In this document: one piece after another, positions 9,821 through 14,900 of the stretch
Layout: each line of letters opens with the position of its first letter
How positions within the stretch are numbered: the first letter of the stretch is position 1
Translations under genes and position numbers: made by a program
Origin: a virus
Lineage: Duplodnaviria > Heunggongvirae > Uroviricota > Caudoviricetes
IMG/VR virus record: IMGVR_UViG_2695420540_000009
Direction: 5' to 3' (one strand)
Length of the DNA stretch: 14,990 bases
The notes under the pieces: generated by a model
Seen by the model: only the letters and a program-made list of their open reading frames with translations
The model's database searches: none
What the model was told of the DNA's origin: nothing

Positions 9821-10641
9821 TCAGAATTTATAACCGACACCCACGATGAAACCGTCAGTGCGCCAGTCGCCACTGCCGGAGCCTTCATAAGCAATATCAA
9901 TGGCCACGGATTCGGTCGGGTTAAACTGCACGCCAGCTCCCCACGCCAGAGACGTGTTGCTGTGGCGACCGTCATCACTTCCGGTCAGCACATCGTGCGT
10001 TTTCCCCTTATTGTCAGTTACGCGGATATAATCCCCGGAAAAAGTCGACACACGGCTGTAAGCCACACCCGCCATCGCATACGCGCTGAACCATTCATTC
10101 ACGCGCACAGACGGCCCCGCCATCACGCTGAACCAGCGATTACGCACGGAATCCTCATGCCAGCGGGTATCGCTGTAATGCGTTTTTTGCTCATCTTCAG
10201 CGTTGGCATAACTGAATGACGTAATCAGCCCCAGCGTGTCCGTAAACTCATAACGGTATTTCACGTTAATCCCGTTCAGATNNNNNNNNNNNNNNNNNNN
10301 NNNNNNNNNNNNNNNNNNNNNNNNNNNNNNNNNNNNNNNNNNNNNNNNNNNNNNNNNNNNNNNNNNNNNNNNNNNNNNNNNNNNNNNNNNNCAAAGCGGC
10401 GCAGTGCCTCCGGTCGGACATCATCCTCCGTCATGGCACCGAGAAAATCATTCAGCGNGTCCGTAAACTCATAACGGTATTTCACGTTAATCCCGTTCAG
10501 ATTATCGCTGCCGGGAGCGTTCGTACGGGCATGAAGATACCCCGCGCTCAGTGTGGACTGATGTTCAGACGCCCATGCAGGCGCACCGGATACGGCCAGA
10601 CAGATGGCTGCGGACAAAATGGCTGCACAAACTTTACGCAT
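9821..10641 (-). CDS. lom: Lom (Ail/Lom/PagC-family outer-membrane beta-barrel protein), interrupted by an unresolved block 10282..10458 (N-run plus a 66-bp stf-like fragment)
   Basis: 5' part at 10459..10641 (MRKVCAAILSAAICLAVSGAPAWASEHQ..., signal-peptide-like, ATG at 10641 preceded by GAGAGG) and 3' part at 9821..10281 (...DGFIVGVGYKF, ending in the aromatic residue typical of beta-barrel proteins). The two parts overlap by ~47 bp of duplicated sequence around the gap. Confidence 0.8.
10282..10391. other. run of 110 N inside lom
   Basis: Literal N characters. Confidence 0.95.
10392..10457 (-). other. orphan 66-bp fragment matching stf codons ~85-105 ([21 protein letters not shown]), misplaced inside lom between two N positions
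   Basis: Near-identical to 9443..9500, and it overlaps by 13 nt the sequence just below the 8572..8581 N-run. Most simply a small contig placed in a scaffold gap. Confidence 0.6.
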
Positions 10642-10662
10642 AATTACCTCTCGCTTTTCTGC

Positions 10663-10689
10663 AATAAAAAAGGCGCCATTTCTGGCGCC
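10663..10689 (-). terminator. rho-independent terminator between the J-fragment stop and the lom start (stem GGCGCC/GGCGCC, loop AGAAAU, then U6)
   Basis: Seen in sequence; identical copy at 11891..11917. Confidence 0.6.
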
Positions 10690-10708
10690 CGTATATGGGT
10701 TATAAAAT

Positions 10709-11554
10709 TCAGCTGATACTGATGCCTGCGGTGGCTTTCTTCATCACCACAACCAGCAAATCGCTGATACTTGCTGTGGGATACCAGTCATTTACCAGCC
10801 ATGATGACACCGAAAACTCCAGCGTCATGTGGCCGCGACCAGCTGGCATATCAATAACACCACTGTAAATCAGCGTATTATCCAGCGCGGTACGGTTATA
10901 AATTTCAGCACCGTTTTTCCGTACTATCAGGCGGCATGACGAATAAATATCGTTATTCTCCCGCTCATGTTTAGCGCCGCTGAATGCCACCGCCGGAATA
11001 ACAATTTGCCTGTCAAAAGGCTGATCGTCATAAATCCTGACGGTAATGGTCCCTGATGGCCACCGCTCCGGTGCCCGGGAGTCCCGCGGAAAAGCCTTAC
11101 CCACTGTTTTGACTATATCGCCTTCAATCTGGTTGGCTGACAGTTTCCCCTTAATCTGACAGTTCTCATTAATTGTGACATTGTTGAGCGTCCCGGCGTT
11201 CGCATTCACACTGCCACTGATATCTGCATTTTTAGCGGTCAGTTTTCCGTCCGGTGTCAGGGAAAATGCCGGAGGATTACCGCCGCTGGTAATGGTGGGA
11301 GCCGTCAGGCGTTTCAGGAACACGTCGTTCATGAATATCTGATCGCCCTGACCAACAAACATCGGCTTTGTGTTGCCATTCGCAGGATTAATCATCGCAA
11401 TCCTGTCTGCCGCCAGCAGCACCTGACTCTGCATTCCTGCTGGCGTATTCTCAATACCGGCACCGATACCCGCAATATAAAGGCGTCCGTCCTTCATCTG
11501 CTGCAGTTTCACGGCCCACATGCTGTTCAGGTTATTATTTGTATCAACCTGAAC
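10709..11554 (-). pseudogene. J: variant second copy of the J 3' end (C-terminal ~282 codons, receptor-binding region), joined at N 11555 to a lom 5' fragment
   Basis: ORF 10709..11869 (-) is a lom(1-104)-X-J(C-term) chimera. 10709..~11000 is by eye identical to 11937..~12228; a diverged patch follows (about 11005..11245 vs 12233..12473), then near-identity again. Confidence 0.6.
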
Positions 11555-11555
11555 N

Positions 11556-11869
11556 ACAGACGGCCCCGCCATCACGCTGAACCAGCGGTTACGCACGGAA
11601 TCTTCATGCCAGCGGGTATCGCTGTAATGCGTTTTTTGCTCATCTTCAGCGTTGGCATAACTGAATGACGTAATCAGCCCCAGCGTGTCCGTAAACTCAT
11701 AACGGTATTTCACGTTAATCCCGTTCAGATTATCGCTGCCGGGAGCGTTCGTACGGGCATGAAGATACCCCGCGCTCAGTGTGGACTGATGTTCAGACGC
11801 CCATGCAGGCGCACCGGATACGGCCAGACAGATGGCTGCGGACAAAATGGCTGCACAAACTTTACGCAT
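11556..11869 (-). pseudogene. lom: lom 5' fragment (codons 1-104), second allele, joined at N 11555 to the J fragment
   Basis: ATG at 11869. Sequence 11687..11869 is identical to 10459..10641; 11556..11686 differs at a few positions from the corresponding part of 9821..10281. Confidence 0.6.
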
Positions 11870-11890
11870 AATTACCTCTCGCTTTTCTGC

Positions 11891-11917
11891 AATAAAAAAG
11901 GCGCCATTTCTGGCGCC
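11891..11917 (-). terminator. rho-independent terminator downstream of J (duplicate of 10663..10689)
   Basis: Stem GGCGCC (11900..11905) / GGCGCC (11912..11917), loop AGAAAU, and a U6 tract on the minus-strand transcript. Confidence 0.6.
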
Positions 11918-11936
11918 CGTATATGGGTTATAAAAT

Positions 11937-14900
11937 TCAGCTGATACTGATGCCTGCGGTGGCTTTCTTCATCACCACAACCAGCAAATCGCTGATACTT
12001 GCTGTGGGATACCAGTCATTTACCAGCCATGATGACACCGAAAACTCCAGCGTCATGTGGCCGCGACCAGCTGGCATATCAATAACACCACTGTAAATCA
12101 GCGTATTATCCAGCGCGGTACGGTTATAAATTTCAGCACCGTTTTTCCGTACTATCAGGCGGCATGACGAATAAATATCGTTATTCTCCCGCTCATGTTT
12201 AGCGCCGCTGAATGCCACCGCCGGAATAACAATCTGCCGGTCAAACGGCTGATCGTCATAAACCCTGACGGTGATGGTCCCTGATGGCCACCGTTCCGGT
12301 GCACGGGAGTCCCGGGGGAAAGCTTTGCCCACTGTTTTAACGAGATCGCCTTCAATCTGGTTGGCGGACAATTTTCCCAGAACCCGACAGTTCTCGTTAA
12401 TCGTGACGTTGTTGAGCGTCCCGGAGTTCGCATTCACGTTACCGCTGATATCGGCATTTTTCGCCGTCAGCCGCCCGTCCGGTGTCAGGGAAAATGCCGG
12501 AGGATTACCGCCGCTGGTAATGGTCGGAGCCGTCAGGCGTTTCAGGAACACGTCGTTCATGAATATCTGATCGCCCTGACCAACAAACATCGGCTTTGTG
12601 TTGCCATTCGCAGGATTAATCATCGCAATCCTGTCTGCCGCCAGCAGCACCTGACTCTGCATACCTGCTGGAGTATTCTCAATACCGGCTCCGATACCCG
12701 CAATATAAAGGCGTCCGTCCTTCATCTGCTGCAGTTTCACGGCCCACATGCTGTTCAGGTTATTATTTGTATCAACCTGAACCTTCTGTATCTGCTGAAT
12801 TGCCGCACTCTGGTCTTCCAGTTTCTTATTGACGGTCTGCGTGATTTCATTGCTGACATCCGTAATGGACGTCCTGATTTCAGCCAGGTCCGGCGCAAGC
12901 TGACCGTTATCAATCTGCGTCCACAGCTCCTGGGCCAGATGTGTTTTCCCGATTTCTCCTTTGAAAAAATCCAGGTAACCTTCCGCATCATCGCTCGCCC
13001 GACCGACAGCCTCCACGAATGCCGATTTGCCAACGGTGTTCACACTGCGAACGTAAAAATAATAATCATGGCCCGGTTTGATATTGATACTGGCGGCTAT
13101 CCAGTACAGCGCCGTACCAAGATAACGCGCGCTGGTTTCAACCTGCCTGATATCAGCAATCCGTTTTTCCGAGAACCAGAACTCAAACTGTACCGTCGGA
13201 TCATAAACCGCAAGATGCGGCGTGGCGGTTATCTGAAAATAGCCCGGCGTCAGCTCAATCCGCGACGGTGCTGCCGGTGCGGCAATCCGGAACGATACCG
13301 ATGCCGGATCGCCCTGCTGTCCCCACGCATTTACCGCCTGGACTGTCAGCCTGTAATTTCCCAGCGCCAGTTGCGTGAAGCGGTATGTGGTTTCCGTCGT
13401 CCTGGCCGTGCTGACCAGCCGCTCACTGCCATCGTCCGCTGCCACGGTCAGGCGAAGCAGGAAGCTCACGCCCTTCACCACCTTCGGCGTGTCCCAGCGC
13501 GCCAGCACCTGATATTCCCCACTGTCTGCGGTGACTTCTGCGGTCAGGTGCTGCACCGCTGGCGGCGTGACACCATTCACCGTGCCGCTCTGGTCGCCGT
13601 CAAAGTGCGCCCCGTTATCCACGATGGCTTCTTTTTCCGGCACATGCTGCACGGCGGTGATGGCATACGTGCCGTCGTCGTTCTCACGGATACTCACGCA
13701 GCGGAACAGGCGCTGGCGCAGCATCGGCAGCTTCAGCCCCCATACACTGTATCCGGCAACGCCGTCAGGAACACGGCTCACTTTTACCTTCACGCCATCA
13801 GTGACGGACTGAACCTCCACGCTGACCGGATTGCCACTTCCGTCAACCAGGCTTATCAGCGTGGTGCCGGAAGATGGCAGCGTGATTTCACGGTCGAGCG
13901 TCAGCGTCCGGGTCTGGCTGTTCACCGCCAGCACGCGCCCGCCGGTGCTGATACCGGCATAGTCATCATCACAGATTTCAATGACATCGCCCGGTACATG
14001 GCGAAGCCCTTCTGCACCCACGCTGAAGTCCACGGTCTGCGTTTCCAGCAGTTCCGTTTTAATCAGCCACAGCCCGGCGCGGTGCGCCTGCCCCCGGCTG
14101 GTACAGCCAAAGGCATCCATCTTCGTGACATTACGACCGTAACGGGCAATGGCCTGCGTGTCCTCCACGAGCTCTGTTGCCGTCTCCCAGCCGTTGTTCG
14201 GGTCAATCCAGTTCACCTCAACGGCATTATGGCGGTCTTTCAGGGCGCTGAAGCTGTAGCGGAATGGCGCACCATCATCCGGCATCACCACATTACTGCG
14301 GTTATAGGTCCACACCTTATCCGACGGTCTGTCCTGCACGAACGTCAGCGTCTGCCCGTTCCATACCGGCATACAGCGCATCGCCGAGCAAAAATCGCTG
14401 AGCACATCCCACGCTTTACGCTGTGTGGTCAGGTACGCATTACAGGTGATGCGCGGCTCCGTGCCACCAAAGCCGTCCGGCACTGACTGGTCGCAGTACT
14501 GGCCGATGACATACAGCGCCCATTTATCCACATCTGCCGCACCAAGACGTTTTCCCATGCCGTAGCGCGGGTGGGTCAGCATATCCCACAGACACCAGGC
14601 CATGTTGTTGCTGTATGCCGGTTTTAACGTTCCGTCCCAGATACCGCTGTATTGCCGCGTCTGCGGGTTATAATTCGACGGCACCTGCAGAATGCGCCCG
14701 CGAAGATGATAATTACGGCTCACCTGCTGGCTGCCGAACTGCTCCGAATCCACCTGTACGCCGACCAGTGCCGTGTTCGGGTAGCACTGTTTCACATCGA
14801 TGATTTCGGTGTATGACGACCAGAGCGTTTTGTTCTGCAGCTGGTCTGTGGTGCTGTCCGGCGTCATTCTGCGCATCCGGATATTAAACGGGCGCGGCGG

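What the first reader, a model, noticed from the sequence alone, without database searches (positions are those of the whole stretch)
10459..12782. 1228-bp block (J 3' end, terminator, lom 5' end) present twice, with a diverged patch in the J receptor-binding region
10459..11554 and 11687..12782 are offset by exactly 1228 bp. They are identical by eye at both ends but differ markedly over about 240 bp (about 11005..11245 vs 12233..12473), changing residues in the J C-terminal region, e.g. QIKGK vs [13 protein letters not shown] vs GNVNANSG. This patchy divergence looks like allelic J C-termini from two lambdoid prophages, or recombinational exchange in the host-range domain, and not a fresh duplication. 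Whether both copies are physically adjacent is doubtful because the junction is an N.
Basis: seen in the sequence. Interest (0 to 1): 0.5.

Follow-up and report, generated by a model that had tools for sequence, protein, structure and literature searches.

The report
Scaffolding artefact: two prophage J alleles stacked
The apparent duplication of a phage tail-tip gene end is almost certainly not physically there: a draft-genome scaffold has laid contigs from two similar resident prophages one after the other, so the two "copies" are two ordinary natural alleles of the same gene from different places in the genome.

Summary
Positions 10459-11554 and 11687-12782 match at an offset of 1228 bp. 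They show 40 mismatches in 1096 nt, and 36 of these lie in 11006-11246. The block holds the J 3' end, a terminator hairpin and the lom 5' end.

It is not a duplication in the genome. Copy 1 is exactly one small contig, bounded by single Ns at 10458 and 11555. All seven N-delimited pieces of the window map to overlapping intervals of single-copy prophage loci.

Near-identical Shigella sonnei-type chromosomes place 1-133, 3852-8571, 10392-10457 and copy 1 on one prophage next to trp, called X here. That prophage has a single J-lom junction. Pieces 8582-10281 and 11556-14990 (copy 2) belong to another prophage, Y. Piece 175-3850 belongs to a third, ipaH-bearing prophage, Z. Neither N junction occurs in 5,426 complete E. 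coli genomes.

The diverged patch is an old standing polymorphism under purifying selection (dS 0.70, dN/dS 0.08). Patch A is 241/241 identical to BEN2908 and patch B to APEC O1. Each of those strains has one J-lom junction at the same chromosomal site.

Interest is low.

The parts
10459..11554 (.). Copy 1 (piece P6): a 1096-nt contig bounded by single Ns. It carries the lom 5' end, a terminator and the J 3' end with allele A.
   Evidence: It is 99.27% identical to the single J-lom junction of prophage X in L017, L021, L023 and L024.
11687..12782 (.). Copy 2: the homologous 1096 nt inside piece P7 (11556-14990), carrying allele B. It is continuous with the rest of the J gene.
11006..11246 (-). 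Diverged patch, allele A. It covers J fragment codons 103-183, about lambda J residues 953-1033.
   Evidence: It is 241/241 identical to BEN2908 and 100% identical in 26 complete E. coli genomes.
12234..12474 (-). Diverged patch, allele B.
   Evidence: It is 241/241 identical to APEC O1 and at least 99% identical in 573 complete-genome records.
10709..11554 (-). J (tip attachment protein) C-terminal 281 codons plus stop, allele A. It is cut at the N.
   Evidence: Pfam Phage_Tail_Tip 3-122 and Ig_GpJ_C 151-281.
11937..14990 (-). J gene, allele B: 1017 codons that run off the window end.
   Evidence: Six J-specific Pfam families plus a sub-threshold generic fn3 match. It aligns to lambda J 847-1131 in PDB 8iyk.
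10671..10690 (-). Terminator-like hairpin after the J stop codon, copy 1.
11899..11918 (-). Terminator-like hairpin after the J stop codon, copy 2.
10459..10641 (-). lom 5' fragment (61 codons), copy 1.
   Evidence: Identical to 11687-11869. Pfam Ail_Lom.
11556..11869 (-). lom 5' fragment (104 codons), copy 2. Its first 48 nt or so carry X-type bases at the two informative sites.
9821..10281 (-). lom 3' part on piece P4 (prophage Y). Its last 175 nt repeat 11556-11730 and its last 44 nt equal the first 44 nt of copy 1.
10392..10457 (-). 66-nt contig (P5): a fragment of the prophage-X tail-fibre gene (stf) 5' region, misplaced between lom pieces.
   Evidence: It is 100% identical to L017 7561-7496, which lies 821 nt from where copy 1 starts in that chromosome.
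10282..10391 (.). 110-N scaffold gap.
10458..10458 (.). Single-N scaffold join at the left boundary of copy 1.
   Evidence: The junction is absent from 5,426 complete genomes.
11555..11555 (.). Single-N scaffold join at the right boundary of copy 1.
   Evidence: The junction is absent from 5,426 complete genomes.

Best explanation
The window is a short-read draft scaffold of a Shigella/EIEC genome, most like Shigella sonnei, that carries several lambdoid prophages with near-identical tail modules. The assembler broke contigs where the prophage copies diverge. The scaffolder then placed contigs from at least three prophages in one linear order and joined them with Ns.

- X is the trp-adjacent prophage: 1-133, 3852-8571, 10392-10457 and 10459-11554.
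- Z is the ipaH prophage: 175-3850.
- Y is a third prophage: 8582-10281 and 11556-14990.

The 'duplication' is therefore the J-3'/lom-5' junction of prophage X (allele A) laid beside the same junction of prophage Y (allele B). The two are not adjacent in the cell.

The 241-nt divergent patch is a genuine, old recombinational mosaic segment of J. It circulates among E. coli/Shigella prophages as two (or more) alleles and is under purifying selection.

Shown: the contig boundaries, the mapping of pieces, the absence of the junctions in finished genomes, and the identity of the alleles. Inferred: the behaviour of the assembler and scaffolder, and that prophage Y sits at another chromosomal site in the source strain.
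For: (1) Both ends of copy 1 are Ns. The window has six N runs, and five of them are flanked by redundant paralogous sequence.

(2) On the single-copy locus L001 the pieces back up on each other: 7430-8571 maps to 7890-9055, 8582-10281 to 8187-9886, 10392-10457 to 9043-9108, 10459-11554 to 9843-10938 and 11556-14990 to 9712-13146.

(3) In complete chromosome CP032523.1 (L017) and two others, P1 (100%), P3 (99.9% over 4720 nt), P5 (100%) and P6 (99.27%) are colinear on one prophage with one J-lom junction. P7 is about 86% and P4 is 87-95% identical there. P2 is 99.9% identical to a different prophage, L004.

(4) In that chromosome P5 and P6 are 821 nt apart, but the window shows a single N between them.

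(5) Junction queries across 11555 and 10458 give no contiguous match in 5,426 complete E. coli genomes. The one near-hit, WB61, is a natural deletion in the normal gene order.

(6) Contig ends switch to the paralogue's bases. The last 17 nt of P3, the first 48 nt of P7 and both flanks of P6 do this.

(7) The P4 end and the P6 start overlap by exactly 44 nt.

(8) The implied gene is nonsense: an in-frame lom'(104 aa)-X-'J(281 aa) ORF.

(9) Another S. sonnei draft scaffold, L024, stacks J pieces at single Ns at different coordinates and yields a 1720-aa 'J'.

(10) Complete genomes hold a median of 2 and up to 14 J-lom junctions at separate sites. Phage records show 260 places in 255 records, one place in each of the ten listed.

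(11) For the patch: dS 0.70, dN 0.053 and 24 of 36 changes at third codon positions. Both alleles are found 100% identical at single junctions in finished genomes.
Against: No reads, depth or long-read data for the source assembly could be examined, so non-adjacency is inferred from comparison and not observed.

Prophage Y (P4 and P7) was not found at 99% or higher in any sequence examined. The best match is 98.6-98.7% for 11556-12900, and the best protein match is 98.8%. Its true location in the source genome is therefore unknown.

Copy 1 differs at 8 flank sites from every prophage-X reference. This is explained only by an assumption, either a consensus chimera or gene conversion.
Confidence: 0.9

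Rival explanations
1. A genuine local partial duplication. In this reading the source chromosome physically carries J(B)-lom' followed by a second 'J(A)-lom' cassette, made by illegitimate recombination between two prophages.
For: The two copies are side by side in the deposited scaffold, in the same orientation. Inter-prophage recombination is common in E. coli and Shigella (own knowledge; PMC6646904 for J).
Against: Every breakpoint coincides with an N. The structure is not head-to-tail: 11556-11686 is lom interior and is not homologous to 12783-12914. The junctions are absent in 5,426 finished genomes. Copy 1 is colinear with other window pieces on a different, single-copy prophage in near-identical chromosomes. 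The same stacking pattern recurs at five of the six N runs in the window.
Confidence: 0.03
2. The two alleles come from two different strains or cells (a mixed culture or contamination) and not from two prophages of one genome. The assembler kept both alleles and the scaffolder stacked them.
For: Prophage Y was not found at 99% or higher in the S. sonnei-type loci examined. Its best DNA matches are E. coli B2 strains at 98.6-98.7%.
Against: Only the X and Z loci of the S. sonnei chromosomes were examined, not whole genomes. Multiple J-lom junctions per genome are the norm, with a median of 2 and up to 14. Another S. sonnei draft (L024) also carries several different J fragments.
Confidence: 0.05
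3. This is a sub-question, compatible with the best explanation. Copy 1 may be an accurate sequence of prophage X in this strain. In that case its flanks were truly homogenised to the Y type by gene conversion between co-resident prophages, leaving only the 11006-11462 core as X type.
For: At 8 flank sites (10596, 10789, 10793, 10804, 11501, 11507, 11513, 11531) copy 1 carries the bases of copy 2. Four S. sonnei X loci agree with each other against it at all 8 sites, and BEN2908 agrees at 7 of them (it differs at 11494 instead of 11501). Background divergence of X pieces from those references is only about 2 in 4700.
Against: The same switch to paralogue bases is seen at the very ends of other contigs, namely the P3 end and the P7 start. 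That is the signature of collapsed-repeat consensus in short-read assembly. It cannot be distinguished from gene conversion without reads.
Confidence: 0.25

Closest known systems
False duplication at scaffold gaps, where collapsed or paralogous repeat contigs are placed serially by a paired-end scaffolder
   Same: The repeat boundaries are the contig boundaries (Ns). The copies map to the same interval of finished references. The gap sizes are unreliable: a single N stands for at least 821 nt. The paper at PMC4053845 describes repeats being collapsed or mis-assembled and confusing scaffolders.
   Different: The 'haplotypes' here are paralogous prophages within a haploid bacterial genome, not alleles of a diploid. 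The assembler and scaffolder actually used are unknown. The Velvet/SSPACE-type behaviour is my inference.
Lambda tip attachment protein J (gpJ) with the downstream lom gene (the lambda J-lom-stf-tfa module)
   Same: The gene order J, terminator, lom, stf, tfa is the same. Six J-specific Pfam families match. The C-terminal 285 residues align to lambda J 847-1131 (PDB 8iyk, 8xcj) and better to 'A8 gpJ' (9wca). Ail/Lom matches.
   Different: The C-terminal receptor-binding domain is diverged from lambda's (E 4e-98 over 285 aa, with many substitutions in the last 130 residues). Receptor specificity is therefore not inferable.
Modular recombination of the J specificity region among natural prophages (Maddamsetti et al. 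2018, PMC6646904)
   Same: There is a sharply bounded diverged segment inside otherwise near-identical J 3' ends. It lies in or next to residues 960-1132, which that paper shows to recombine independently of the rest of J. The same two alleles segregate at one chromosomal site in the related strains BEN2908 and APEC O1.
   Different: The patch here is small (about 80 codons, 8 conservative replacements). It ends before most of the receptor-contacting domain, which is nucleotide-identical between the two alleles.

Membership tests
Scaffolding/assembly artefact (stacked paralogous contigs) | The boundaries of the repeated block coincide with contig ends (Ns). | tested here: met
   Ns at 10458 and 11555 bound copy 1 exactly.
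Scaffolding/assembly artefact (stacked paralogous contigs) | Consecutive pieces map to overlapping intervals of single-copy finished references. | tested here: met
Scaffolding/assembly artefact (stacked paralogous contigs) | The junction sequences are absent from finished genomes. | tested here: met
   No genome of 5,426 has a contiguous match. The WB61 near-hit is explained.
Scaffolding/assembly artefact (stacked paralogous contigs) | The pieces belong to different loci in a near-isogenic finished genome. | tested here: met
   P1, P3, P5 and P6 lie on the trp-adjacent prophage and P2 on the ipaH prophage of CP032523.1. P4 and P7 lie on neither.
Scaffolding/assembly artefact (stacked paralogous contigs) | Read depth, read pairs or long reads of the source isolate contradict adjacency. 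| not testable with these tools
   No reads are available and the source record was not identified.
Genuine tandem duplication | Head-to-tail units, so that sequence after copy 1 is homologous to sequence after copy 2, with an uninterrupted junction. | tested here: not met
   11556-11686 (lom interior) is not homologous to 12783-12914 (J interior), and the junction is an N.
Lambda-type tip attachment protein J | The J domain set: FNIII-A_GpJ, Phage-tail_3, Ig_J, Ig_J_second, Phage_Tail_Tip and Ig_GpJ_C. | tested here: met
   All six match above the Pfam cut-offs. The sequence also matches solved lambda J chains.
Ail/Lom outer-membrane beta-barrel | A match to Pfam PF06316 across the protein. 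| tested here: met
   The 5' fragment matches profile positions 1-104 (E 2e-67). The P4 part matches positions 48-199 (E 2e-98).
Diversity-generating retroelement (template/variable repeat pair) | Differences between the repeats are restricted to adenines of one copy, and a reverse transcriptase gene lies nearby. | tested here: not met
   Of the 36 differences, 16 involve A in allele A, 4 involve A in allele B and 16 involve no A. Twenty-four are at third codon positions and dN/dS is 0.08. No RT-sized ORF lies nearby; the ORFs were not scanned individually.
Invertible host-range cassette (Pin/Gin/Cin-type) | Alternative C-termini in inverted orientation, flanked by inverted crossover sites next to an invertase gene. 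| tested here: not met
   The two J ends are direct repeats, not inverted. The window does hold such a module, but for the side tail fibre at about 3856-6155, which is unrelated to this finding.

The most novel reading that the evidence does not exclude
The source strain might really carry a second, promoterless 'J(A)-lom' cassette directly downstream of J(B)-lom'. That would be a standby alternative J C-terminus, available for recombinational host-range switching. In this reading the Ns would merely reflect assembly difficulty at a true tandem repeat.
Probability: 0.02. Interest if true: 0.5.

Novelty: not a real feature. Interest (0 to 1): 0.08.

Why it matters
The main value is as a caution. 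Draft scaffolds of prophage-rich Shigella and E. coli genomes can stack paralogous tail-gene contigs. This creates false duplications and false fusion ORFs. Here these include a lom'-'J fusion and a 1213-aa doubled tail fibre. Elsewhere, 'J' proteins of 1195-1720 aa have entered public protein databases.

The underlying biology is real but already described. A sharply bounded, old, purifying-selected mosaic segment near the J specificity region segregates among prophages.

Tried and rejected
- I looked for the source record through exact proteins. IpaH gave many Shigella chromosomes. The 187-aa tfa ORF with a TTG start was not on record. The 175-aa version gave S. sonnei-type chromosomes. The source scaffold itself was not identified.
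- I searched J(B) against the protein collection to find prophage Y. The best match was 98.8% and there was no exact match.
- The EIEC ipaHe prophage loci (L002, L003) and ETEC-2264 (L001) are only 91-96% identical to the J-lom pieces. They served only as single-copy coordinate frames.
- I considered and rejected a DGR, an invertible cassette and a true tandem duplication (see membership tests).
- I considered that the Ns might be masks over continuous sequence. I rejected this because the flanks are not colinear on any reference.
- A literature search for a statement on single-N joins by scaffolders found none in the paper checked. Naming a specific scaffolder remains my conjecture.
- I did not establish a complete genome that carries both patch alleles in different prophages. 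The listings show no overlap among the rows displayed.
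Full report
**Observation**

The window contains six runs of N: 134-174, 3851, 8572-8581, 10282-10391, 10458 and 11555. These divide it into seven pieces:
- P1, 1-133
- P2, 175-3850
- P3, 3852-8571
- P4, 8582-10281
- P5, 10392-10457
- P6, 10459-11554
- P7, 11556-14990

The reported repeat is real. P6 (10459-11554) matches 11687-12782 at an offset of exactly 1228. There are 40 mismatches in 1096 nt. None lies in the first 547 nt, 36 lie in 11006-11246, and 4 lie in the last 308 nt. 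The chance probability of that clustering is 7e-20. The block that occurs twice is therefore 1096 bp, and 1228 is the offset.

A third partial copy exists. Positions 10107-10281 equal 11556-11730 with 2 mismatches.

**Gene content**

On the minus strand, 11937-14990 encodes the tip attachment protein J. Six J-specific Pfam families match. Its last 285 residues align to lambda J 847-1131 in solved structures.

A terminator-like hairpin follows the J stop codon in both copies. The next gene is lom (Pfam Ail_Lom). It is followed by the side tail fibre gene stf and the tail fibre assembly genes (tfa).

**Why the duplication is not physical**

1. Copy 1 is exactly one contig, and both of its ends are Ns.

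2. On a single-copy finished locus (ETEC-2264, L001), successive window pieces back up on one another:

| Window piece | L001 interval |
|---|---|
| 7430-8571 | 7890-9055 |
| 8582-10281 | 8187-9886 |
| 10392-10457 | 9043-9108 |
| 10459-11554 | 9843-10938 |
| 11556-14990 | 9712-13146 |

3. Exact-protein look-ups (IpaH; Tfa) led to Shigella sonnei-type complete chromosomes such as CP032523.1, which are almost identical to parts of the window. In its trp-adjacent prophage (L017, called X here), four pieces lie colinear on one stf-lom-J locus with one J-lom junction:
   - P1, 100% identical
   - P3, 99.9% identical over 4720 nt
   - P5, 100% identical
   - P6, 99.27% identical

   P7 is only about 86% identical there and P4 is 87-95% identical. 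P2 is 99.9% identical to a different, ipaH-bearing prophage at btsS (L004, called Z here). The window therefore interleaves the prophages in the order X, Z, X, Y, X, X, Y.

4. In that chromosome P5 and P6 are 821 nt apart, whereas the window has a single N between them. The Ns are therefore not meaningful gap sizes.

5. Queries spanning the Ns at 11555 and 10458 found no contiguous match in any of 5,426 complete E. coli genomes. The one record with at least 80% coverage, WB61, has a natural 509-nt deletion with lom and J in normal order. That is not the window's junction.

6. The arrangement is not head-to-tail. The 131 nt after the N (11556-11686) are lom interior, continuous with copy 2, and are not homologous to what follows copy 2.

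7. Contig ends carry the paralogue's bases:
   - The last 17 nt of P3 show two Y-type bases.
   - The first 48 nt of P7 show two X-type bases before switching to Y type.
   - P6 has Y-type bases at 8 flank sites. Four S. sonnei X loci agree with one another against it at all 8 sites, and BEN2908 does so at 7 of them.

   The end of P4 overlaps the start of P6 by exactly 44 nt. These are signatures of repeat-boundary contig breaks.

8. The implied ORF 10709-11869 is an in-frame lom'(104 aa)-X-'J(281 aa) fusion.

9. The same kind of stacking occurs in another S. sonnei draft scaffold (FTVF01000064.1, L024). It occurs there at single Ns at different coordinates and produces an annotated 1720-aa 'host specificity protein'. 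Several other over-long J proteins in the database contain repeated J segments.

10. Multiple J-lom junctions per genome at separate sites are normal. The median is 2 and the maximum 14. Phage genomes show 260 places in 255 records, one place in each of the ten listed.

**What the patch is**

Within J, the patch covers codons 103-183 of the 281-codon fragment, which is about lambda J residues 953-1033. Its 36 nucleotide differences give only 8 amino-acid changes: K/R, S/N, A/S, Q/R, I/V, K/L, I/L and I/V. Twenty-four of the 36 are at third codon positions. dS is 0.70, dN is 0.053 and dN/dS is 0.08.

The patch is therefore an old, diverged allele imported by recombination into an otherwise near-identical background. 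It is not a diverging fresh duplicate and not targeted mutagenesis. The substitution spectrum is not adenine-specific, which excludes a DGR-type mechanism.

Patch A is 241/241 identical to E. coli BEN2908 and patch B is 241/241 identical to APEC O1. Both strains carry a prophage at the same ompW/yciE site with a single J-lom junction. They differ from each other at the same 36 positions, with 1 difference in the 547-nt flank. Patch A is 100% identical in 26 complete genomes, and patch B is at least 99% identical in 573 records. Each of the 120 listed hits lies inside one annotated J gene.

This fits the published finding that the J specificity region (residues 960-1132) recombines as a module among natural prophages (PMC6646904).

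Seven of the 8 replacements lie upstream of the Pfam receptor-binding domain, which begins at fragment residue 151. The remaining 98 residues of that domain are nucleotide-identical in the two alleles. A host-range difference between the alleles is therefore doubtful.

**Unresolved**

- Prophage Y (P4 and P7) was not located in any finished genome at 99% or higher.
- Whether the Y-type flanks of P6 are a consensus chimera or true inter-prophage gene conversion cannot be decided without reads.
- The source assembly and its assembler and scaffolder were not identified. A Velvet/SSPACE-like pipeline is my conjecture from the pattern of single Ns and from the origin of the similar scaffold L024.

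**Verdict**

That interpretation is supported. As a genomic feature the duplication is an assembly artefact, and the allelic patch is a known kind of J mosaicism. Interest is low.

Noticed in passing
window 2201-3844 (+): This is an intact ipaH-type type III secretion effector (LRR plus NEL E3 ubiquitin ligase, 547 aa) carried as prophage cargo. The exact protein occurs in many Shigella chromosomes. The DNA is 99.7% identical to the EIEC ipaHe prophage at btsS. It identifies the source as Shigella/EIEC.
   Followed up: partly
window 6121-9762 (-), N at 8572-8581: The 1213-aa side tail fibre ORF is a false fusion. Positions 7727-8571 (prophage X) and 8582-9450 (prophage Y) are 89-93% identical paralogous segments stacked across a 10-N gap. 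As a result the motif '[11 protein letters not shown]...' appears twice.
   Followed up: partly
window 1-133 vs 917-1048, N at 134-174: This is another stacked pair (92% identity). Positions 1-133 are 100% prophage X, while 175-3850 is prophage Z. The N at 3851 likewise joins Z to X.
   Followed up: partly
window 3856-6155: This looks like an invertible side-tail-fibre module. It has convergent tail fibre assembly genes at 5030-5563 (+) and 5592-6119 (-), an inverted repeat at 5030-5188 / 5961-6119 (71%), an alternative fibre C-terminus ORF at 4266-4877 (+), and a truncated Pin-like resolvase N-terminus at 3856-4062 (-) cut by the N at 3851.
   Followed up: no
window 10709-11869 (-): This is an in-frame artefactual ORF made of Lom residues 1-104, an X and the last 281 residues of J. 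An annotation pipeline would call it a 386-aa protein.
   Followed up: yes
L024 (S. sonnei FTVF01000064.1) 10001-16801; proteins P0001-P0010: Public databases contain over-long 'host specificity protein J' entries of 1195-1720 aa from draft S. sonnei and E. coli scaffolds. Their sequences contain repeated J segments. In L024 the pieces are joined at single Ns (12982 and 15204) and map to overlapping intervals of one J gene.
   Followed up: partly
window 10596, 10789, 10793, 10804, 11501, 11507, 11513, 11531: At these 8 sites copy 1 carries the bases of copy 2. Four S. sonnei prophage-X loci carry the other base at all 8, and BEN2908 does so at 7 of them (it differs at 11494 instead of 11501). 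This is either a collapsed-repeat consensus or real gene conversion between co-resident prophages.
   Followed up: partly
L027 (E. coli WB61) 2501-3220: This genome has a natural deletion of about 509 nt. It removes the J C-terminus and the lom 5' end and fuses the two genes in a finished genome.
   Followed up: yes
window 7654-9180: The Ala/Ser/Thr-rich central part of the tail fibre gene contains families of degenerate 33-41-nt direct repeats (12 and 9 copies at 60-100% identity). This is typical low-complexity fibre shaft sequence.
   Followed up: no
window 175-764: By colinearity with L004 7975-8564, this stretch is part of an IS110-family transposase gene (DEDD_Tnp_IS110/Transposase_20) inserted beside the prophage Z tail fibre assembly remnant.
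   Followed up: no
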